Part shown: piece by piece, positions 3,772-53,380 of the stretch | Layout: every line of letters starts with the position of its first letter | Numbering within the stretch: position 1 is the first letter of the stretch | From: Thermoplasmata archaeon | GTDB taxonomy: Archaea > Thermoplasmatota > Thermoplasmata > Thermoplasmatales > Thermoplasmataceae | Direction: 5' to 3' | Assembly (NCBI GenBank): GCA_021818715.1 | Contig: JAKATN010000003.1 | Coordinates: forward strand, 31,093-95,092 | DNA: 64,000 nt | The notes under the pieces: model-generated | What the model saw: the letters and a program-made list of their open reading frames with translations, nothing else | Told to the model about the DNA's origin: nothing | The model's database searches: none | Made by a program: the position numbers and the translations under genes

Positions 3772-5334
3772 ATGAGATCAAAACCGGAAAATCCGGTAAG
3801 AGGTGTTCTGAGAAGCGAGATCAGGGTGCTCTTAAAGCTATATCCGGTTTTTCGCAGGTACGTGAAGGACCGAAAGCGGATCAAGAGGGAAAAAGAACAC
3901 GTTTACGACCCGAGGATAGAGTACAACGGCCTGAGGGCAATGAACGCATTCGTGGAACTCGGCCCCACCTTCATAAAGCTGGGCCAGATGCTTTCTGCCA
4001 GGCCAGATCTCCTTCCGAATGAATATGTTTCATCCTTCCAGAAGCTTCAGGACGATGTCCCTGCAGCAGATTTTGCGCTTGTGAAGCCAATTCTTGAGCG
4101 CAACCTGGGCGAACTTGGGAAGATCTTTGAGGAATTTGATCAGGACGCGGTGTCAGGTGCTTCCCTTGGACAGGTATATACCGCCGTCTACAGGGGAAGG
4201 AAGGTGGCAGTCAAGGTCAATAGGCCATACGTCAAGCAGAGGCTGAAAAAAGACCTGGTTGTTCTGAAGAGGCTGGTAAAACATGCTAAGAACCGGGTGG
4301 ACAACTTCCTTTACATCTCCCTTGAAAACGTGATCAACGACTTCAGTTCAAGGATCTTTGACGAACTTGACTACAGAAAGGAAAAATCCAACATGGAAAA
4401 GATCAGGAAGAATATATCCAGGAGGGAAAACGTGATAATTCCGGAAATTGTGGAAGAACTATCCGGGGAGGAAGTCCTGGTGATGCAGCATGTGGATGGT
4501 GTGAAGATCACCGATGTGAGGAAACTAAGGGAGATGGGATATGATACTGCCAGGCTCGCGTTCTCCCTTGATCTAATGTTCATAAGAATGGTGCTGAAGG
4601 ATGACATCTTCCATGGCGATCCGCATCCCGGCAATATCTCGGTTTCGGCAGACGGGAAACTGATACTGTACGATTTCGGGATGGTCGGCACGCTTGACGA
4701 GAACACCAGGGAGAACCTCATCGCGTTGTATGTCGGTATGATAACATCGGATGCGGACGTGATCATAGATGCCCTTGTTTCCCTCAATGCACTTTCTCCT
4801 GCTGCCAATCGTGGAGTTATACGAAGAAGCATAGAATTGTCAATCGCAAACCTGAGGGGAATTAACCCGGAGGAGAGCGAAATCAGGGAACTCTTCGCGA
4901 TAGCAAATGAAGTGATCTTCGAGTTCCCATTCCGGCTTCCCAGGGCGCTTGTCCTTTACATGAGAATGGCAAGCCTGCTCGAAGGAATATGCAGGGATCT
5001 GGACAGAGATTTCAGGTTCCTCAGGGTGCTGAGGCAGATCCTCTATAATGAAGGGGTCTTGAACAAGTTCTACCGATCTCAACTTATTAAATTCGCTGCC
5101 AAATCGATCATAAGCATAGAGAAGGGACTGGATGCGTTGCCCCTCATCAAACGGGCTCTAGAAGAAAAAGATGCACCATTGAACGGGAAAAGAAGCGTGA
5201 AGGTTGAAATCTCTATATTCCTTGGTTTCGCCCTGCTTTCTCTGGCTTTGTTCTACAGCTATTTTCCATTTTATTCACTCATCCTCATACTCGTAGTTGC
5301 TGTGGCATTTGCTGCAACCGTACTGAAAAAATGA
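3772..5334 (+). CDS. ABC1/UbiB (AarF) atypical kinase family protein with a C-terminal membrane anchor
   Basis: FIKLGQMLSARPDLLPNEYVSSFQKLQDDVP is the ABC1 family signature. It also has a kinase-like VAVKV lysine, HGDPHPGNI, a DFG motif, and a hydrophobic C-terminus. Confidence 0.85.
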   Translation: MRSKPENPVRGVLRSEIRVLLKLYPVFRRYVKDRKRIKREKEHVYDPRIEYNGLRAMNAFVELGPTFIKLGQMLSARPDLLPNEYVSSFQKLQDDVPAADFALVKPILERNLGELGKIFEEFDQDAVSGASLGQVYTAVYRGRKVAVKVNRPYVKQRLKKDLVVLKRLVKHAKNRVDNFLYISLENVINDFSSRIFDELDYRKEKSNMEKIRKNISRRENVIIPEIVEELSGEEVLVMQHVDGVKITDVRKLREMGYDTARLAFSLDLMFIRMVLKDDIFHGDPHPGNISVSADGKLILYDFGMVGTLDENTRENLIALYVGMITSDADVIIDALVSLNALSPAANRGVIRRSIELSIANLRGINPEESEIRELFAIANEVIFEFPFRLPRALVLYMRMASLLEGICRDLDRDFRFLRVLRQILYNEGVLNKFYRSQLIKFAAKSIISIEKGLDALPLIKRALEEKDAPLNGKRSVKVEISIFLGFALLSLALFYSYFPFYSLILILVVAVAFAATVLKK

Positions 5335-29372: not shown

Positions 29373-30827
29373 GTGGAGATCGCTAAAAGAAGAGGATTTT
29401 TCTGGCCTTCGTTTTCTCTGTATGGCGGGGAGTCCGGCTTCTATGATTTCGGACCAGTTGGCACCCTGCTGAAGGATAGGTTCCTGAGGCTGTTCAGGCA
29501 AAGTTACCTGCGCGAAGGCGGGATATTCATAGACACACCCACTGTCACGCCGAAAAGGGTTTTTCAGGCCTCAGGGCATCTTGAAAAATTCGAGGATCTC
29601 GCAGTAAAATGCTCCAGGTGCGGCAGGTATGACAGGATCGATTCCTCGCTGAAAAAATCAGGCATTGCAAGGGAAACTACGACACTGGAAGATGCCATTT
29701 CTCTGATCGATGAGGGGAAACTTATCTGCGCATATTGCGGCGGAAAGATAGTTTCTGCTGAGATGATGAGCCAGATGTTCAGGGTGGAGAGAGGCAAAGG
29801 CTATGAGCCGTATTACCTGAGGCCGGAGACCGCACAGGGTATATTCGTGAATTTCAAGCTTCTCCTGAACCAGAACAGGGGGAAACTGCCTATGATCGTC
29901 TGCCAGTACGGGAAGGGCTACAGGAACGAGATATCTCCGCGCCAGGCACTCCTGAGGCAGCGCGAATTCTTTATGGCAGAGGTGGAGGTTTTCCTGGATC
30001 CGGAAGCAGGTTGGACCAGAGATCCACCGGAAGACGTTGTGCTGACGCTATTGCAAAACAGCGGTAATAAGCTGCGGGCATCTGCGAAGAACGCGCATGA
30101 GAGCGGGGTCATAGCGAACAGAGGGATGGCATACTTCATTTACATCACTTACTCCATCCTCAGGAAATGCGGAATTCCGGAAGATGGAATAAGGTTCAGG
30201 CAGCACAGGAAGAGCGAGCTTGCCCACTACGCCAGGGACGCCTGGGATGCCGAGGCGGTAATAGACGACGACTGGGTGGAGATAGTGGGAATTGCCGATC
30301 GCGGCGATTATGATCTCAGGAAGCATTCAGATTTTTCAGGTGAGCCGCTTTCAGCAGAGGGTGGGGCAGTACCGGTGGTTGTTGAACCCGCTTACGGCGT
30401 GGACAGGATCACCATGGCAGTTCTTTCATCCTCATATTATGTCAGGGAAAACGGATTCAAGGTAATGCGCCTGGCGCCAGAGATATCCCCTTACATTGTT
30501 GCCGTACTGCCGCTGCAGATCAGGGACGGGCTTGATGCTATTGCAAGGGAACTTTTCGCAAAGCTCATGAACCTGAACGATTACGTTGCCTACGATGAGT
30601 CCGGATCAATAGGAAGGAGATACGCGAGGCAGGATGAGATAGGGACGCCTTATTGCATAACAGTGGATTACCAGACCAAGGAGGACTCCACGGTAACAAT
30701 AAGGGAAAGGGATAGCACCTCCCAAATCCGGGTGAAGATCGATGATCTTACCGGATACCCCATTCTTCAGAATACGAAATTGATGAAGGAGCTAAGTGCT
30801 CTCAGTCTTTCTGCATCAAAGAAATAA
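29373..30827 (+). CDS. glyS: Glycine--tRNA ligase (archaeal/eukaryotic class II type)
   Basis: It has RRGFFWPSFSLYGGESGFYDFGPVG, YLRPETAQG and FRNEISPR, plus a C-terminal anticodon-binding domain. GTG at 29373 is the first canonical start after the in-frame stop at 29325. Confidence 0.92.
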   Translation: MEIAKRRGFFWPSFSLYGGESGFYDFGPVGTLLKDRFLRLFRQSYLREGGIFIDTPTVTPKRVFQASGHLEKFEDLAVKCSRCGRYDRIDSSLKKSGIARETTTLEDAISLIDEGKLICAYCGGKIVSAEMMSQMFRVERGKGYEPYYLRPETAQGIFVNFKLLLNQNRGKLPMIVCQYGKGYRNEISPRQALLRQREFFMAEVEVFLDPEAGWTRDPPEDVVLTLLQNSGNKLRASAKNAHESGVIANRGMAYFIYITYSILRKCGIPEDGIRFRQHRKSELAHYARDAWDAEAVIDDDWVEIVGIADRGDYDLRKHSDFSGEPLSAEGGAVPVVVEPAYGVDRITMAVLSSSYYVRENGFKVMRLAPEISPYIVAVLPLQIRDGLDAIARELFAKLMNLNDYVAYDESGSIGRRYARQDEIGTPYCITVDYQTKEDSTVTIRERDSTSQIRVKIDDLTGYPILQNTKLMKELSALSLSASKK

Positions 30828-33899: not shown

Positions 33900-36428
33900 T
33901 TATCCGACTGCGCCGAATTTGCTCATTTCAAGCTTTATCAGCCTATTCATCTCTACAGCGAATTCCATCGGAATCTCCTTCATAACGTCGTCAAGGAATC
34001 CCAGCACTATCATTGAACTGGCCTCGTCCTCCGAAAGCCCTCTGGATCTTAGGTAAGTCAACTCCTCTGTGCCAATCTTTCCCACGGACGCCTCATGGGA
34101 GAAAGTCGCAGTTGGTTCATAAATCTCGTCATGGGGGAAAGTGAGCGACGATGACTGATCGTTTATCAGAAGAGCGTCACACTGCACTTTGCTCTTGGAG
34201 TGCACTGCTCCCTTGTTCATCCTGAGGAGGCCCCTGTATATGGCCTTTCCATCCTCTATGCTGATGCTCTTGGCCACTATCCTGGAACTGGTGTACGGTG
34301 CAAAGTGAAGCGCCTTGGCGCCGGTGTCCTTGTAGGTTCCTGCACCGGCAAGTGCTATGTTCAGATTGGATGCCGAGGAATGCGCACCCCTCAGATATGA
34401 AGACGGGTATAGCATGGTGACCTTGGAACCAAGAGAACCGCCCACCCATTCCATCTGGGCGTTCTCGTCCACCCATGATCGTTTTGTGGGCATGTTGTAG
34501 ACGCTCTTTGACCAGTTCTGGACGCTCGTATACCTTGCCCTGGCATTCTTCTTCACGTAAATCTCCACTATTGCGCTGTGTAACGAATCCCTGTCATACC
34601 TTGGGGCTGTGCAGTTGTGTACGGCAAAACCCTTGGCCAGATAGGTGTTTTCCCCGCTCACTTCAAGGTTGTACACGAGATCGTTGTAGTCCTCGCTGGT
34701 GATGTTCTTTATTGGAACAAAGAAAATGTTACCTGATCTTCGCACCTCGGAGAATTGCCTGTTCTCACGGTATTGCACTACGTACTGCGCCTTACTGCCG
34801 CCGTCTGTGTCATGAATAGCCCTGTTTTTGACCCTTCCAGGAGTTATGGTGGCAAATGTTCCTATTCGTGCCAGCATTTCCTGCAGCTGGAAGGCCATTG
34901 TCTCGCCGGCAGCGGAAAACCTCACTACTGAAGGTAAACTGCGATCCCTTCCCTTGAATGCCGAAACGGCGCCATGGTATTGATCAATGATAAGTTTCTG
35001 TTTCTGAGGCGGCAGGAGCATAATGCGCTCGGAGAATTTCTTGCCATTTCCAACTTCCCTAACCAGGTCATTCAGCAGGCTTATTAGGTCTCCTGATTTT
35101 GATGATACAGTGGTGAGCCCGTTATCCGATCTGGCAATGATTGCTTCTCCTCCAAGGAATTCTATGAGATTGGCTGTTTCCATGGCCAGAGTTTTTGCAA
35201 TGCCTGGCCTTCCGTACCTGAAACTGACTTCCCTGATCCCTGATGCCTGGTCAGTGTGCAACGAACCCGCGGCTGCATAAAGCCCGATTAACCTCAAAAC
35301 CGGTTCGTTTATCGAAGGATCATCAGTTGTCTCGGTGGGGGCAACGTACACAATGAAATCCCCCTCCTTCAGCTCATCCGCCCTGATGAAATCGGGTTTG
35401 CAGGCCGGAAGCCTCCCGTCTGACAGCCTCTTCATTTTTCCATTCCTTGGTGCACAGGCATCAACGTCGGATCTCCTCACGGCTAGAACCGGGTGCTCAA
35501 CCGTGAGCCTGAACGCATTGCCCATGGAAAGCGGAGTCACTGTCAGCATCCTGCCCTCGTAAGGATGGATGAATGTCCTGGTGACCTGCGATTTCCTGCC
35601 GGAGTGTGTCATGACGCTGTCCAGTAGATTGACAGTGCTGATGGGAGTGAATGTATCTCCCCTGCTTACTATTTCATCAGCGGGAAGGCAGCCTTCAACA
35701 TAGTGGACCTTTGAACCTTCGTCTGCAACGACTATGGTGTGCTCGAACTGCCCCGTAGCCTCTCCGTTCATGCGGAAATAGGTCTGCAGGGGCATGTCTA
35801 TCTGCACCCCCTTTGGAACGTACAGGAACGATCCGCCGCTCCAGACTGCCCCGTTAAGGGCTGCAAATTTGTTGTCAGTAATTGGAACAGCCTTGCAGTA
35901 ATAGTCCTTCACCAGGTCAGGATATCTCTGAATCGCCGAATCCAGATCCATGAAGACCACGCCCTTGTCCTCCCAGACCTTCTTCAGGTTGTGATATACT
36001 CCCTCGCTGTCGTATTGGGCAACTGAACCTGCTAGGTACTTCTGCTCAATCTCTGGAATTCCAAGTTTCTGGAAAGTCTCCTTTATCTGGTCAGGGACTT
36101 CATTCCAGTCATTCACCCTTCTCTCATCCGGCCTGTTATAATATGAGGTGTTTTCCCAGTCAATACCGGACAGATCCGGGCCCCATGTGGGTACGGGCTT
36201 GGACTGGAACACTTCCAGCGCCTTCAGCCTTGCCCTCCGCATCCAGTCCGGTTCCTTCTTTATTTCGGATATCTCCTCAACCGTCTCCCTGGTCAGCCCT
36301 TTTCCGGTGGAATATACTGGCTTAAGATTGTCATGGAATTCATAATCATTCTGCTTCAGGTTGTTCAGCTCCTTAAGCAGCTGTTCCAGTTCCTCGTCCT
36401 TCTTGAAATCTACATCCATTTCAAGCAC
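33900..36428 (-). CDS. sufB: Fe-S cluster assembly protein SufB, interrupted by an in-frame intein (842 aa precursor, 483 aa after splicing)
   Basis: The exteins read ...FEHTIVVADEGSKVHYVEG | CTAPRYDRDSLHSAIVEIY..., which is a contiguous canonical SufB sequence once residues 247-605 are removed. Confidence 0.92.
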   Translation of the reverse strand: MLEMDVDFKKDEELEQLLKELNNLKQNDYEFHDNLKPVYSTGKGLTRETVEEISEIKKEPDWMRRARLKALEVFQSKPVPTWGPDLSGIDWENTSYYNRPDERRVNDWNEVPDQIKETFQKLGIPEIEQKYLAGSVAQYDSEGVYHNLKKVWEDKGVVFMDLDSAIQRYPDLVKDYYCKAVPITDNKFAALNGAVWSGGSFLYVPKGVQIDMPLQTYFRMNGEATGQFEHTIVVADEGSKVHYVEGCLPADEIVSRGDTFTPISTVNLLDSVMTHSGRKSQVTRTFIHPYEGRMLTVTPLSMGNAFRLTVEHPVLAVRRSDVDACAPRNGKMKRLSDGRLPACKPDFIRADELKEGDFIVYVAPTETTDDPSINEPVLRLIGLYAAAGSLHTDQASGIREVSFRYGRPGIAKTLAMETANLIEFLGGEAIIARSDNGLTTVSSKSGDLISLLNDLVREVGNGKKFSERIMLLPPQKQKLIIDQYHGAVSAFKGRDRSLPSVVRFSAAGETMAFQLQEMLARIGTFATITPGRVKNRAIHDTDGGSKAQYVVQYRENRQFSEVRRSGNIFFVPIKNITSEDYNDLVYNLEVSGENTYLAKGFAVHNCTAPRYDRDSLHSAIVEIYVKKNARARYTSVQNWSKSVYNMPTKRSWVDENAQMEWVGGSLGSKVTMLYPSSYLRGAHSSASNLNIALAGAGTYKDTGAKALHFAPYTSSRIVAKSISIEDGKAIYRGLLRMNKGAVHSKSKVQCDALLINDQSSSLTFPHDEIYEPTATFSHEASVGKIGTEELTYLRSRGLSEDEASSMIVLGFLDDVMKEIPMEFAVEMNRLIKLEMSKFGAVG
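34614..35690 (-). mobile_element. SufB intein (359 aa) with a LAGLIDADG-type homing-endonuclease-like insert
   Basis: It starts with Cys (CLPADEIV, codon at 35688..35690). Block B is LTVEHPVLA. DOD-like blocks are LRLIGLYAAAGSL and LIIDQYHGAVS. Block F/G is VYNLEVSGENTYLAKGFAVHN. The +1 residue is Cys (34611..34613). Confidence 0.85.
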
Positions 36429-49913: not shown

Positions 49914-50044
49914 ATTCTCCCCGTTTTTAAATCGGATGCCGAGTGGCCCACGTTAAGCTAGGGCCATAAATTTCTTACCCATCCCTTTGACTTTGTGCAG
50001 TATGAGTAGCAAAATATTTGTAATAGCAGGGTGATCAAAGGCGG

Positions 50045-50884
50045 ATGAGTTACGAAGCTGAAATCAGCAGAACAAATCCCTCACTAGTTGTGTTCATGAT
50101 TGATCAATCCAGATCCATGAGCCATAAGATACCGGGCAGCGACAATTCCAAGGCCAGAGAAGGTGCAGATGCAATAAACAGGCAGATTGGAGAATTTATA
50201 GGCCGGTGTACTAAGGCAGACGGCATCAGAGATTACTTCTATATCTCCGTCATAGGGTATGGGTTCCGCGCTGGAACTGCACAGGCAATTCTTAAGGGAG
50301 ACCCGGTGCAGCCAATTTCTGCACTCGCAAACAATCCGTTGAGGACTGAGAAGAGGGTTACCAAAGTATCTGACGGCGAGGGCGGGTTGATAGACGTTGA
50401 TTATGAGCTGGGGATATGGTTTGATCCGGTAGCCGCAAGCGACACCCCGATGGTCCATGCGCTCAAGCTTGCCAGGGATATGGTTAAAGACTGGGTGGAA
50501 AAGAGACCTGACACCTACCCTCCAATCGTGATCAACATTTCTGACGGGCAGGCCACAGACGGCGATCCAACGGAACTGGCCAAGGAGATAATGAATATTG
50601 CTTCCACGGACGGGAATACGCTTCTCTGGAATTGCCATGTCTCGAGTTCACCGGGCACTCCCATTACGTTCCCTTCCAACCCAGAGGGGCTGCCAGATGA
50701 TAAATACGCGAGGATTCTCTTTGATATTTCCAGCCCGCTCCCGGAGCAGTACATGGGTTACGCAAGGGAAATGTCCTACAACATATCGGAAGGCGCCAGA
50801 AGCTATGTGTATAACGCCCAGCTTGAACAGCTCATCCAGTTCATTGACATCGGCACCAGAGGACCTTCCGGACAGATGCAGTAA
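50045..50884 (+). CDS. von Willebrand factor A (vWA) domain protein, TerY-like
   Basis: The MIDAS motif D-x-S-x-S occurs in VVFMIDQSRSMS (50102..50116), followed by ISVIGYG and NISDGQATDG. Confidence 0.8.
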   Translation: MSYEAEISRTNPSLVVFMIDQSRSMSHKIPGSDNSKAREGADAINRQIGEFIGRCTKADGIRDYFYISVIGYGFRAGTAQAILKGDPVQPISALANNPLRTEKRVTKVSDGEGGLIDVDYELGIWFDPVAASDTPMVHALKLARDMVKDWVEKRPDTYPPIVINISDGQATDGDPTELAKEIMNIASTDGNTLLWNCHVSSSPGTPITFPSNPEGLPDDKYARILFDISSPLPEQYMGYAREMSYNISEGARSYVYNAQLEQLIQFIDIGTRGPSGQMQ

Positions 50885-51601
50885 TTGACCTCCGTCCGGT
50901 ATCTCTCAGTCCCGAAGGTCGGGAACCGCCCCAACGAGAACGAGGATTCGTTCGCCTTTTCCGAAGATCGGGGGATATTTGCCGTTTCAGATGGCGCCAG
51001 CGATTCGAGTTTCGCCGGGCAATGGGCAAGGGCCCTCACGGCCACATTTTCTGAGATAGGGGGAGTTCATGAAAGCGGGGATTTCATAACTCTCGTAAAG
51101 AGAAGCAGGGAGATATGGAAGAAAAGCGTGGACTGGGGATCGCTACCATGGTTCGTGAAAAACAAGGTAACAGGCGGTGCTTACGCAACCTTTCTCGGCG
51201 TTCATGTCAATACTTCCCTTTACGAGTTCACCGTGACTTTTGTTGGAGACTCGTGCCTGTTCCATCTGGATGAATCCGGGTACACGGTCTACCCCAACAT
51301 GAAGCCCGAGGATTTTAAGTTCAACCCCAAGTTGATCTGGAGCGGGTATGGGTACCCCTCCCTGGAAAAGGTGTCTCCAATAAAGACTGAGGCCTCCATT
51401 GCAAGGAGGAAATGGAAGAACGGAGATTCGTTCATCCTCGCCACGGATGCCATGTCAAAATGGCTTCTTGAAGATGATCCGATGGAAAAGATAGCCTCAG
51501 TGATTGAAGGATTCGATACCTTCGGGGAGAAGGTCGATCAGCTTAGAAAGGAGAAGATCATGAGGAATGACGACGTTACCGTCATGCTGCTTAACCCCTG
51601 A
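50885..51601 (+). CDS. PP2C-family Ser/Thr phosphatase-like protein
   Basis: It has NEDSFAF, AVSDGASDS, LATDAM and the C-terminal NDDVTVMLL. The TTG start follows the vWA stop codon with no gap. Confidence 0.7.
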   Translation: MTSVRYLSVPKVGNRPNENEDSFAFSEDRGIFAVSDGASDSSFAGQWARALTATFSEIGGVHESGDFITLVKRSREIWKKSVDWGSLPWFVKNKVTGGAYATFLGVHVNTSLYEFTVTFVGDSCLFHLDESGYTVYPNMKPEDFKFNPKLIWSGYGYPSLEKVSPIKTEASIARRKWKNGDSFILATDAMSKWLLEDDPMEKIASVIEGFDTFGEKVDQLRKEKIMRNDDVTVMLLNP

Positions 51602-51604
51602 AAA

Positions 51605-53323
51605 TCAGACCTTAAGGATCCTTTCCGGGGAAATCTGGTCCCACAGGGGTTCATGGTCGATCGCCTTGTAAACCAGGTTTGATAACTTTCCAACAATACC
51701 ATTCTGCTTCGTCAGCTCCCCGATGAGCGGCGAGCTGCCTGGGTCCCTGAAATCGTTATGCCGGAATACGAGGCAGTCATAATCGCCCTTGTTGTACCTG
51801 TTCCAGAGCTCAGGCTTGGAGGAAACGGCCAGCAGGGAAGTATAGATGATCAGGCTTGAAAAATTGTCAAGATCCTCGGAAAAATGGATTATGGATCGAT
51901 CAGGGTGCTGGAAATGCTCGTGCCCCTTTTCCGGAGCCTTTTCACCGCGGAAGGCGGGAACGTACATTCCGTCATAATCAATAAGCGCGATGCTGTCCTT
52001 CGGTGTGACGATTATGTTGTCGCCTGCAAGGTCCCCGTGAGATATCCCGAGCCTGTGGAGTTTTGCTGAAGTTTCCAGGAACTGCTGTGCCAGGTTTTTC
52101 AGGACCGATTGTTTCTTCACATTTGCCGTAATGAAGCTGTTCAGTACGGAACCTTCGATCCAGTCCATTTTAAGAACCGGGTAAAAGAAGGAGGGATCCT
52201 TCATCGTCCTCACGCACTGGTTCAGGTACTGAAAATTCTTAAGTGCTTCAATATTGTATTTTCCCTGTATTTCCTTAAGGTATCTGCTTATCTCATAGTA
52301 TCGGCGCTGTATGTCCTGGCTGGACTTGGTAAAGCATTTTATGGCGTATGGCAGCCCGCCAACATCCATCTTGAATATTGTTCCGTAGTTCCCGCTGGAA
52401 TAGACTATGTTTCCGGGCACGTTGACATTCGGGTTGCTGAGTACTTTTCCCGCCTTTATATCCGGATATTTTGCCGAAATGGAGAACTTGAGATTCTGGA
52501 AGGCCCTCTGGTAATCTCCCTGGGATGGCCATGTCTTGATTACCTTGAAGCTTGCCTGCTGGGGCTGGGATGGCTGTGAAACCGCAGGTTTATACCCGAA
52601 CTGGTTGTCATTCTTGGTTGCTGGCTGTTTCGGTGTCTGCGCCATTTTTGACTGAGACGGCGGTATTGTTGCCGTTATAGGTGACGTGTTGACGGGCGAG
52701 GATCTGGCAGGAGCAGGAGTGGGAGGCTGGCTGTTCTGTTTAGCCGCAGTCTGTGCTGAGGGCGAGTTACTGGCCTGTTTGGGTGCAACCTGCTGAACAG
52801 GTACCGTTGAAGGTTTTGGTCCACTGAATTCATAAAACATTGCCAGCCCAAACAGAACTATGCCGATCATCATGAAATATGCGGAAATTACTGGCAAGGC
52901 CAGTGAAATGGAAATTGTCAGCAAGGGGATAATGGCAACCCAGGCCTGGTATCTCTTCCTGGAGATATCGTATCCCACTGCGAAAACAAACAGGATGGTT
53001 GAAAACAGATATCCAAGCACTATCTCCGAAAACGTGGGGGAGGCGACATAAAGCATGCCGATAAAAAGAAGGTACACCCCGGATAACCCTGCTGTTTTCC
53101 CCCGACCCCTGATTTCCCTGCTTGTGTAAAGGAAGATGGTGAACGCCGCGGCTGCTATCCCTCCCAGGGCAACGGTAAGGTACGGATATGCAGTCCAGAG
53201 GAAATCTGCAATGTCGACCACAATATATCCCGGAATTGAGAATACGAGGACAAGTGCCATGAGGGCGATAAACAGCCTTAGCCGAAGTTTCATCTTGCGG
53301 AGCGATAAGTATGCCACAGGCAT
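51605..53323 (-). CDS. Membrane-anchored eukaryotic-like Ser/Thr protein kinase
   Basis: It has about 5-6 N-terminal TM helices, then a P/Q/S/A-rich linker. The kinase domain has YAIKCF (VAIK Lys), HGDLAGDNIIV (catalytic loop) and IDYDG (DFG-like). Confidence 0.8.
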   Translation of the reverse strand: MPVAYLSLRKMKLRLRLFIALMALVLVFSIPGYIVVDIADFLWTAYPYLTVALGGIAAAAFTIFLYTSREIRGRGKTAGLSGVYLLFIGMLYVASPTFSEIVLGYLFSTILFVFAVGYDISRKRYQAWVAIIPLLTISISLALPVISAYFMMIGIVLFGLAMFYEFSGPKPSTVPVQQVAPKQASNSPSAQTAAKQNSQPPTPAPARSSPVNTSPITATIPPSQSKMAQTPKQPATKNDNQFGYKPAVSQPSQPQQASFKVIKTWPSQGDYQRAFQNLKFSISAKYPDIKAGKVLSNPNVNVPGNIVYSSGNYGTIFKMDVGGLPYAIKCFTKSSQDIQRRYYEISRYLKEIQGKYNIEALKNFQYLNQCVRTMKDPSFFYPVLKMDWIEGSVLNSFITANVKKQSVLKNLAQQFLETSAKLHRLGISHGDLAGDNIIVTPKDSIALIDYDGMYVPAFRGEKAPEKGHEHFQHPDRSIIHFSEDLDNFSSLIIYTSLLAVSSKPELWNRYNKGDYDCLVFRHNDFRDPGSSPLIGELTKQNGIVGKLSNLVYKAIDHEPLWDQISPERILKV

Positions 53324-53380
53324 TAAAGGTTTCTTATGCTGGAATCAAAGCGTTTTTTAAAGGAATAAACATATATTTCC

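What the first reader, a model, noticed from the sequence alone, without database searches (positions are those of the whole stretch)
50045..53323. vWA + PP2C phosphatase + membrane Ser/Thr kinase triad (TerY-P-like signalling module) in an archaeon
A vWA protein with an intact MIDAS motif (DQSRS) is followed with no gap by a PP2C-like phosphatase (TTG start at 50885). A convergently oriented kinase has about 5-6 N-terminal TM helices, a P/Q/S-rich linker and a eukaryotic-like kinase domain (YAIKCF, HGDLAGDNI, DYDG). The vWA-PP2C-kinase combination is the TerY-phosphorylation triad that comparative genomics defined in bacteria, where it is linked to stress and conflict systems. Here it occurs without any ter genes, wedged between housekeeping psmA and SBDS. 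Its function in archaea is, to my knowledge, untested.
Basis: partly seen in the sequence, partly recalled or inferred. Interest (0 to 1): 0.6.

Follow-up and report, generated by a model that had tools for sequence, protein, structure and literature searches.

The report
Archaeal TerY-P kinase-phosphatase switch variant
The three genes are a real, catalytically intact vWA / PP2C phosphatase / membrane kinase module of the known "TerY-P" type, in a rearranged form that nearly all Thermoplasma-family archaea carry; what it does there is untested.

Summary
All three proteins match the three PADLOC TerY-P models: TerY E=8e-88, PP2C 2e-32, kinase 9e-62. The MIDAS, PPM metal-binding and kinase catalytic residues are invariant across relatives. 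AlphaFold models give a vWA fold and a PPM fold.

- The triad is single-copy and occurs in 17 of 20 genera of Thermoplasmataceae, including T. acidophilum and T. volcanium. It forms one clade apart from bacterial triads.
- In this clade the kinase gene is inverted, and its 3' end abuts or overlaps the PP2C gene.
- The kinase domain is C-terminal. The known OB-fold or Zn-ribbon tail is absent, and an N-terminal input module stands in its place. Three types exist (6-TM here, PH-like, Ig-like), and they follow the triad's own phylogeny.
- In this genus the unit sits as a 3.5-kb insertion inside the otherwise adjacent psmA-SBDS pair.
- The triad tree conflicts with a DnaG tree, and one transfer to another order is evident.
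- No conserved fourth gene and no TerD were found.

I read it as a self-contained phospho-switch, a new variant of a known kind. Whether it serves antiviral defence or stress signalling remains open.

The parts
50045..50884 (+). TerY-type cytoplasmic vWA protein (279 aa) with a complete MIDAS (D20, S22, S24, T134, D167), an inserted beta-hairpin (about aa 100-124) and a C-terminal extension ending in the invariant I-G-T (269-271)
   Evidence: PADLOC TerY PDLC02224 E=7.8e-88, positions 1-273 of 277. Invariant columns in A2. AF2 pLDDT 87. Foldseek vWA/integrin I domains, E down to 4e-6, prob 1.0.
50885..51601 (+). Minimal PPM/PP2C phosphatase (238 aa). The TTG start abuts the TerY stop, which suggests translational coupling.
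   Evidence: PADLOC PP2C PDLC02222 E=1.8e-32. Invariant E20, D21, G37, D122, D188, D229 and D230, with D36 nearly invariant. AF2 pLDDT 94. Foldseek PstP, PppA, tPphA and Stp1 at E about 1e-11.
51605..53323 (-). Membrane-anchored Ser/Thr kinase (572 aa; possibly 562 aa from Met11 at 53293)
   Evidence: Pfam Pkinase E=7.4e-10, above the gathering score. PADLOC STK_OB PDLC02223 E=9.2e-62, aa 264-551 on model positions 2-277 of 562 only.
52826..53275 (-). Six predicted transmembrane segments (aa about 17-166), N-in/C-in, with outside loops of about 13, 6 and 1 residues: a membrane anchor or intramembrane input module
   Evidence: Hydropathy peaks and K/R counts of 5/0/4/0/3/0 in successive loops. 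No homologue of aa 1-170 among 1.8 billion representative proteins.
52541..52825 (-). Low-complexity P/Q/S/T/A-rich linker (aa about 167-261)
   Evidence: Read directly from the sequence. Its length and sequence are not conserved among relatives.
51608..52540 (-). ePK-like kinase domain (aa about 262-572): G311, K329, H429/D431, N436, D449-Y-D-G452, the family signature E465-x-G-H-x-x-F-Q-H-P-x-R476, and D486 (alphaF-like)
   Evidence: Conservation in 44 kinases. Weak PDB sequence matches to Ser/Thr kinases that align HGDLAGDN with HRDxKxxN.
51599..51607 (.). Tail-to-tail junction: PP2C stop TGA, 3 nt, kinase stop (TCA on the + strand). There is no room for a terminator between the convergent genes.
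   Evidence: The genes are convergent in all 32 loci of the archaeal clade, and in most the 3' ends overlap by 8-23 nt.
49914..50044 (+). 131-bp intergenic region upstream of TerY, with an A/T-rich TATA-like stretch (AAAATATTT, 50011-50019) and GGTGA 9 nt before the ATG: a presumed promoter and ribosome-binding site
   Evidence: Read by eye. This is inference only.
53324..53380 (.). 57-bp A/T-rich divergent intergenic region between the kinase start and the SBDS start
   Evidence: This is inference only.

Best explanation
This is a complete, functional member of the TerY-P (TerY-phosphorylation triad) class, in a lineage-specific archaeal architecture. Shown here: a cytoplasmic TerY-type vWA protein with an intact metal-ion-dependent adhesion site; a translationally coupled minimal PPM phosphatase with all metal-binding aspartates; and a convergently encoded kinase with a complete catalytic core. 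The kinase is held at the membrane by six N-terminal helices and a long disordered linker. Inferred mechanism: a cue at or in the membrane activates the tethered kinase, probably through proximity or oligomerisation and autophosphorylation. In this wall-less acidophile family that cue would be membrane or metal stress, or virus attack. The kinase then phosphorylates TerY and/or proteins that TerY recruits through its MIDAS metal. The PP2C removes these phosphates and resets the switch. In sister lineages the same kinase core carries a soluble PH-like or Ig-like N-terminal module instead of the membrane anchor, so the N-terminal module sets the input or location while TerY, PP2C and the kinase core form the constant engine. 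The 3' ends of the kinase gene and the TerY-PP2C operon abut or overlap, so their transcripts probably run into each other. That could make kinase and phosphatase expression mutually antagonistic. No effector gene is attached, so the output must lie in phosphorylation itself or in a partner encoded elsewhere.
For: Identity: the three PADLOC TerY-P models match at E=7.8e-88, 1.8e-32 and 9.2e-62. Folds: PPM and vWA, from confident models. Catalytic and MIDAS residues are invariant. The three genes are always together: 31 of 31 related archaeal loci, and only these three genes recur across the genera sampled. Purifying selection: within the genus TerY diverges about as slowly as psmA and SBDS (97/92/80% against 98/93/85% and 99/87/83%). 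PP2C and the kinase diverge faster, at or above the rate of the neighbouring metabolic enzymes. Prevalence: 78 of 103 genomes and 17 of 20 genera of the family, one copy each. Modular input: three N-terminal types map one-to-one onto three 99%-supported clades of a tree built without those regions. Topology puts the kinase domain in the cytoplasm. Precedents: TerY-P-like triads act as stand-alone anti-phage systems, and the triad was predicted to be a metal-sensing phospho-switch (PMC10542128; PMC7699616). In E. coli, the kinase YegI of the yegL-pphC-yegI set is an active membrane kinase whose activation follows second-order kinetics (bioRxiv 10.1101/819920).
Against: No experiment exists for any archaeal member. 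That TerY is the substrate is inference. The alphaC glutamate that normally pairs with the beta3 lysine is not conserved, so the kinase is atypical, although E. coli YegI is active despite missing motifs. The membrane module has almost no external surface and no detectable homologue, so it may be only an anchor. The signal and the output are unknown.
Confidence: 0.6

Rival explanations
1. It is a dedicated antiviral (abortive-infection type) defence system, like the TerY-P-like triad that protects E. coli from T7-like phages. Virus attack at the membrane would trigger the kinase, mass phosphorylation would arrest the cell or block the virus, and PP2C would act as the safety catch.
For: It is homologous to the tested system's models (literature). 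The unit moves: in this genus it is inserted into the ancestral psmA-SBDS pair, it sits in different neighbourhoods in other genera, and it was transferred to another order (f14 nests as sister of genus g2 with 98-100% support, although f14's DnaG is only 50-52% identical). The triad tree and the DnaG tree reject each other (p=5e-113; p=0.017, 0.006 and 0.0015). Swapping of input modules is typical of immune sensors.
Against: Presence in 17 of 20 genera with exactly one copy per genome is unlike the patchy, strain-level distribution of defence systems. The flanks are housekeeping genes with no integrase, no defence genes and no flanking repeats. TerY evolves as slowly as the proteasome alpha subunit. 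The OB fold of the tested anti-phage kinase is missing. The species proxy is a single gene, and the groups tested were named after the trees had been seen.
Confidence: 0.3
2. It is a housekeeping or stress signalling module of the family. It would be the main Hanks-type signalling device in organisms without two-component systems, reporting membrane, pH or metal status to cellular targets.
For: The triad is near-universal, single-copy and under purifying selection. The three genera that lack it form one clade in the DnaG tree, which is compatible with a single loss or a later gain. In T. acidophilum and T. volcanium the triad kinase is the best Pkinase match in the genome. Thermoplasmatales are reported to lack two-component systems (PMC5007285). 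Partial synteny with an Nre/radical-SAM pair in five genera spans two triad clades, which suggests an old shared locus. The triad was originally predicted to sense metal (PMC10542128).
Against: The phylogeny is incongruent, and there is one clear inter-order transfer. No conserved target gene lies beside it. A whole clade of acidophiles does without it.
Confidence: 0.3
3. It is functionally tied to its neighbours psmA and SBDS, that is, to regulation of the proteasome or of ribosome maturation.
For: The only support is adjacency in this genus, in 4 of 4 genomes.
Against: psmA and SBDS are directly adjacent without the triad in genera g2, g6, g7, g12 and g15 and in families f5, f6 and f14, even though several of those genomes carry the triad elsewhere.
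Confidence: 0.03
4. It is a decaying relic of a transferred bacterial island.
For: There is no effector, no OB fold and no ter genes.
Against: The frames are intact, and the catalytic and MIDAS residues are invariant across the clade's loci sampled from 18 Thermoplasmataceae genera and family f14.
Confidence: 0.02

Closest known systems
TerY-P anti-phage system (Gao et al. 2020; PADLOC models TerY, PP2C, STK_OB)
   Same: The same three protein families, with strong matches to all three models. It is a stand-alone three-gene unit with no attached effector.
   Different: Only the kinase half of the kinase model is matched (positions 2-277 of 562), so there is no C-terminal OB fold. The kinase domain is C-terminal, behind a 6-TM anchor and a linker. 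The kinase gene is inverted and tail-to-tail with PP2C, whereas all 10 bacterial loci examined are colinear. The host is archaeal, and the module is family-wide rather than sporadic.
TerY-P triad of Anantharaman, Iyer and Aravind 2012, including the triads attached to type II/III-A CoCoNuT McrBC systems and the H. pylori island
   Same: The same vWA + PP2C + kinase logic, predicted to be a metal-sensing phospho-switch (PMC10542128; PMC4978471).
   Different: Those triads sit beside DNA/RNA-processing, McrBC, T7SS or ter genes, and the kinase carries a C-terminal Zn ribbon. Here there is no associated module, no TerD in the genome and no conserved fourth gene. The 2012 paper itself could not be read.
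E. coli yegL - pphC - yegI (vWA, PP2C-like phosphatase, membrane Ser/Thr kinase)
   Same: The same three kinds of protein in one locus. YegI is an active kinase anchored in the inner membrane with both termini cytoplasmic, and PphC is an active PP2C (bioRxiv 10.1101/819920; 10.1101/303594, listed).
   Different: It is only a distant relative. The PADLOC TerY and PP2C models found nothing in the E. coli control genome. In YegI the kinase domain is N-terminal (aa 1-302) and two transmembrane helices follow it.
Sulfolobus ArnA/ArnB archaellum network (vWA protein ArnB, ePKs, PP2A)
   Same: It is the best-studied archaeal case in which a vWA protein is the phosphorylated hub of a kinase/phosphatase circuit (PMC5007285). 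It is a functional analogy for 'TerY as substrate/adaptor'.
   Different: The families differ (an FHA partner, a PPP-type phosphatase, a different vWA clade), and the components are not a compact triad. No homology was tested here.
T. volcanium PPM phosphatase of Dahche et al. 2009
   Same: It is the only biochemically studied archaeal PPM, and it comes from the same family of organisms (PMC5007285).
   Different: I do not think it is the triad's phosphatase. T. volcanium has a second, more canonical PPM gene at about 708 kb (PF13672 E=1e-15, PF07228 2e-5) that T. acidophilum lacks, whereas the triad PP2C lies at 570.5 kb. Equating the 708-kb gene with the published enzyme rests on my recollection of its ORF number (TVN0703) and on gene order. 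The published length is 218 aa, against a 243-aa open frame at 708 kb and 232 aa for the triad PP2C.

Membership tests
TerY-P triad (generic, Anantharaman 2012 sense) | TerY-type vWA protein with a MIDAS | tested here: met
   PDLC02224 E=7.8e-88 over its full length. D20, S22, S24, T134 and D167 are invariant. The model has a vWA fold.
TerY-P triad (generic, Anantharaman 2012 sense) | PP2C/PPM phosphatase with its metal-binding aspartates, encoded beside TerY | tested here: met
   PDLC02222 E=1.8e-32. D21, D36, D122, D188, D229 and D230 are conserved. PPM fold at E about 1e-11. The gene abuts TerY.
TerY-P triad (generic, Anantharaman 2012 sense) | Ser/Thr kinase of the triad-associated clade in the same locus, co-conserved with the other two genes | tested here: met
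   PDLC02223 E=9.2e-62. K329, D431, N436 and D449 are conserved. Co-located in 31 of 31 related archaeal and 10 of 10 bacterial loci.
TerY-P triad (generic, Anantharaman 2012 sense) | Association with ter genes or DNA-processing/restriction modules | tested here: not met
   No TerD in the genome. The flanks are housekeeping genes. No fourth gene recurs across genera. Association is frequent but, as far as I know, not obligatory for the family.
Anti-phage TerY-P (Gao 2020 / PADLOC) | Kinase with a C-terminal OB fold (STK_OB) | tested here: not met
   Only model positions 2-277 of 562 are matched, and the protein ends with the kinase domain. The extra modules are N-terminal.
Anti-phage TerY-P (Gao 2020 / PADLOC) | Colinear three-gene operon | tested here: not met
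   The kinase gene is convergent in all 32 loci of the archaeal clade and colinear in the 10 bacterial loci. That colinearity defines the system is my assumption.
Anti-phage TerY-P (Gao 2020 / PADLOC) | Protects against virus infection | not testable with these tools
E. coli YegL-PphC-YegI type | Close sequence relationship to YegL and PphC | tested here: not met
   The PADLOC TerY and PP2C models do not ring in the E. coli control genome.

The most novel reading that the evidence does not exclude
The triad is the principal environmental signalling device of the wall-less, two-component-free Thermoplasmataceae. It would be a constant TerY/PP2C/kinase engine onto which three interchangeable input modules (membrane, PH-like, Ig-like) have been grafted, and which lineages of the family have exchanged among themselves. 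The obligatory overlap of the convergent 3' ends would form an antisense toggle that makes kinase and phosphatase expression mutually exclusive. This would give a bistable, membrane-triggered stress or virus alarm unlike any described TerY-P system.
Probability: 0.2. Interest if true: 0.65.

Novelty: new variant of a known kind. Interest (0 to 1): 0.45.

Why it matters
TerY-P triads have been shown to defend bacteria against phages, but their mechanism is unknown. Archaeal Ser/Thr signalling outside Sulfolobus is almost unexplored. This clade offers a minimal, effector-free version of the triad in culturable organisms (T. acidophilum and T. volcanium). In those two species the triad kinase is the best canonical protein-kinase match in the genome. 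The clade also provides three natural input-module variants of one kinase core, which is a ready-made comparative experiment on what the triad senses. Near-universal, single-copy retention in 1.4-2 Mb genomes also bears on whether 'defence systems' found by homology are always defence. The family itself is already known, so this extends existing knowledge and does not change the picture.

Tried and rejected
(1) Lead: the characterised T. volcanium PPM is the triad's PP2C. Rejected, because a second, more canonical PPM gene lies at about 708 kb and is absent from T. acidophilum. The term TVN0703 occurs in no paper of the library.

(2) A functional link to psmA and SBDS. Rejected, because that pair is adjacent without the triad elsewhere.

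(3) A conserved fourth component. None was found: only the three triad genes recur across the genera sampled, and the fourth large cluster is an antisense shadow ORF inside TerY.

(4) Mobile-element signatures at the insertion borders. No flanking direct repeats were found, and no integrase was seen in the flanks examined.

(5) Identity of the 6-TM module. No Pfam match, and no homologue among 1.8 billion representative proteins.

(6) Naming the soluble N-terminal modules. Only sub-threshold hints came back (GRAM E=0.18; Filamin 0.003; Big_6 0.04; DUF7489 0.003), so 'PH-like' and 'Ig-like' are provisional labels.

(7) Single-sequence PDB searches for TerY and PP2C found nothing. A PP2C profile reached plant PP2C 57 only weakly, at E=0.004.

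(8) ProRS as a second species marker. Unusable, because genera g2 and g5 carry a different ProRS type at 38% identity.

(9) Apparent in-frame stops in some PP2C genes. The one I checked (L073) is intact.

(11) Anantharaman et al. 2012 (PMC4104200) is not held, so statements about it come from papers that cite it.
Full report
**What is there**

The region holds three intact genes, as described.
- A 279-aa vWA protein lies at 50045-50884 (+).
- A 238-aa protein lies at 50885-51601 (+). Its TTG start follows the vWA stop without a gap.
- A 572-aa protein lies on the opposite strand at 51605-53323. Its stop codon is 3 nt from the stop of the second gene.

Generic libraries see the first two only weakly. 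Pfam gives VWA E=0.002 and PP2C_2 E=0.008, both below their gathering scores. Pkinase scores 7.4e-10, which is above its gathering score. NCBIfam gives nothing near a cut-off.

The three models that PADLOC uses for the TerY-P system match strongly:
- TerY, E=7.8e-88, over positions 1-273 of 277.
- PP2C, E=1.8e-32.
- STK_OB, E=9.2e-62, over model positions 2-277 of 562 only. That is the kinase half without the OB fold.

**Catalytic competence**

In an alignment of 35 TerY homologues from archaea and bacteria, the MIDAS residues D20, S22, S24, T134 and D167 are invariant. Mean column identity is 58%.

In 30 PP2C sequences, E20, D21, G37, D122, D188, D229 and D230 are invariant, and D36 nearly so. 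A profile of these sequences aligns the ED, DG and GDS motifs with those of a solved plant PP2C, though only at E=0.004.

In 44 kinases, G311, H429, D431, N436, D449 and D486 are invariant. The beta3 lysine K329 is present in every member of the archaeal clade. No alphaC glutamate is conserved.

AlphaFold2 models built on these alignments are confident: PP2C has pLDDT 94 and TerY has pLDDT 87. Foldseek puts PP2C among bacterial PPM phosphatases (PstP, PppA, tPphA, Stp1) at E about 1e-11. It puts TerY among vWA and integrin I domains at E down to 4e-6. The TerY model shows an inserted hairpin and a C-terminal extension.

The kinase N-terminus has six hydrophobic segments. K/R counts in successive loops are 5/0/4/0/3/0, so both ends are cytoplasmic and very little is exposed outside. 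Residues 1-170 have no detectable homologue among 1.8 billion representative proteins.

**Who has it**

Named database relatives include T. acidophilum, T. volcanium and Thermogymnomonas. The nearest genomes are hot-spring and sediment Thermoplasmata MAGs. The 1.39-Mb genome holds one copy.

- In the family, the triad's PP2C is present in 78 of 103 genomes and 17 of 20 genera, essentially once per genome.
- It is absent from all sampled members of three genera. Those three genera form one clade in a DnaG tree.
- No TerY was found in 16 genomes of other families of the order.
- Across 401 genomes of the class (105 genera), TerY occurs only in this family, in one other family (f14, two genera) and as a weak divergent hit in a third.

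In every related archaeal locus examined, the order is TerY, PP2C, then an inverted kinase. The PP2C and kinase 3' ends are convergent in all 32 loci of the clade, counting the window. In most they overlap by 8-23 nt. Ten bacterial loci (Planctomycetota, Campylobacteraceae) are colinear. In at least the Planctomycetota loci the kinase domain starts within the first few residues, with C-terminal extensions after it.

**Evolution**

A TerY tree places the family plus f14 in one clade with 99% support on a long stem, apart from all bacterial sequences and a Bathyarchaeota sequence.

A tree of TerY, PP2C and the kinase core concatenated gives three clades, each with 99% support. They coincide exactly with the type of N-terminal module on the kinase:
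- multi- or two-pass membrane;
- a roughly 100-aa soluble domain with faint GRAM/PH-like similarity;
- a roughly 100-aa beta-rich domain with faint filamin/Ig similarity.

f14 nests as sister to genus g2. Its DnaG is only 50-52% identical to the window's, against 68-69% for g2. I read this as a transfer between orders.

Within the family, the triad data reject a clade that DnaG supports (p=5e-113). DnaG in turn rejects each of the three triad clades (p=0.017, 0.006 and 0.0015). This points to exchange within the family, or to old paralogy with differential loss. Two caveats apply: DnaG is a single-gene proxy for the species tree, and the groups were chosen after the trees had been seen.

psmA and SBDS are directly adjacent in five other genera and in three other families. 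In this genus the triad is therefore a 3.47-kb insertion between them, conserved in all four congeners. No flanking repeats mark the insertion. Elsewhere the neighbours differ and are housekeeping genes. Only the three triad genes recur across the genera sampled. An Nre/radical-SAM pair lies 1-4 kb away in five genera that span two triad clades.

Within the genus, TerY diverges about as slowly as psmA and SBDS. PP2C and the kinase diverge faster, at or above the rate of the neighbouring metabolic enzymes.

**How it probably works**

The parts are shown here; the wiring is inferred. I read it as a self-contained phospho-switch.
- The kinase, tethered to the membrane through a long flexible linker, is activated by a membrane-proximal cue.
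- It phosphorylates TerY and/or proteins that TerY binds through its MIDAS metal.
- The co-translated PP2C resets the state.

The N-terminal module would define the input or location. The abutting or overlapping convergent 3' ends suggest antisense interference between kinase and phosphatase expression.

Whether the physiological role is antiviral defence or stress signalling cannot be decided from sequence.
- For defence: homology to a tested system, mobility of the unit, incongruent trees and swapping of input modules.
- For stress signalling: near-universal single-copy retention, housekeeping context and slow evolution of TerY. In addition, in Thermoplasma the triad kinase is the best Pkinase match in the genome, and the order is reported to lack two-component systems (PMC5007285).

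**Comparison with what is known**

It belongs to the TerY-P class (PMC10542128; PMC7699616; PMC4978471). It fails two features of the experimentally tested anti-phage form: the C-terminal OB fold and colinearity. It also lacks the ter or DNA-processing neighbours of many bacterial triads; in particular, the genome has no TerD.

The E. coli yegL-pphC-yegI set is a looser analogue with a membrane kinase. The PADLOC models do not detect it.

The one characterised archaeal PPM, from T. volcanium, appears to be a different gene at about 708 kb.

I found no paper that describes this Thermoplasmataceae clade or its architecture.

**Verdict**

This is a new variant of a known kind and is of moderate interest.

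Noticed in passing
G000:C1:126021-127638 (own genome, outside the window): A second, much stronger Pkinase match (E=6e-42, in a 915-aa open frame) lies about 500 bp upstream of a PP2C_2 match (E=1.8e-10). The genus therefore has a second kinase/PP2C pair or fusion besides the triad; congener G003 has the kinase too.
   Followed up: no
window 33900-36428 (-): An 842-aa SufB carrying an intein (SUFBD_core plus an Intein_splicing match at aa 348-605). An earlier first-reader note mentions the same feature.
   Followed up: no
L100, L101, L106 (genomes G023, G004, G118): The class II aminoacyl-tRNA synthetase at window 29373-30827, which I took to be ProRS, is 50-56% identical in most genera of the family but only 38% identical in genera g2 and g5. 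This suggests replacement by a different type.
   Followed up: no
L151 (G097, T. acidophilum, 1342590-1343281): The SBDS gene of the T. acidophilum reference genome is split by an in-frame TGA or a frameshift near residue 188. It is either a sequencing error or a disrupted gene.
   Followed up: no
L013:11574-13666 and the equivalent genes in L015, L020, L023, L076: An archaeal Nre (Nre_N + Nre_C) gene and a radical-SAM gene form a pair that lies 1-4 kb from the triad in five genera (g2, g8, g12, g14, g16). In g2 the pair is inverted. This may be a remnant of an ancestral neighbourhood.
   Followed up: partly
G100:C1:708276-708857 (T. volcanium): A canonical PPM/SpoIIE-like phosphatase gene that is absent from T. 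acidophilum. It is probably the enzyme characterised by Dahche et al. 2009, and it is unrelated to the triad.
   Followed up: partly
window 3772-5334 (+): An ABC1/UbiB-type atypical kinase (E=3e-66), a further kinase-like gene in the window.
   Followed up: no
L070 (G400:C54:243000-259000, family f17): A very divergent vWA (30% identity), PP2C and kinase-like set in a different arrangement, in another Thermoplasmata family. It is probably an independent, distant triad-like locus.
   Followed up: no
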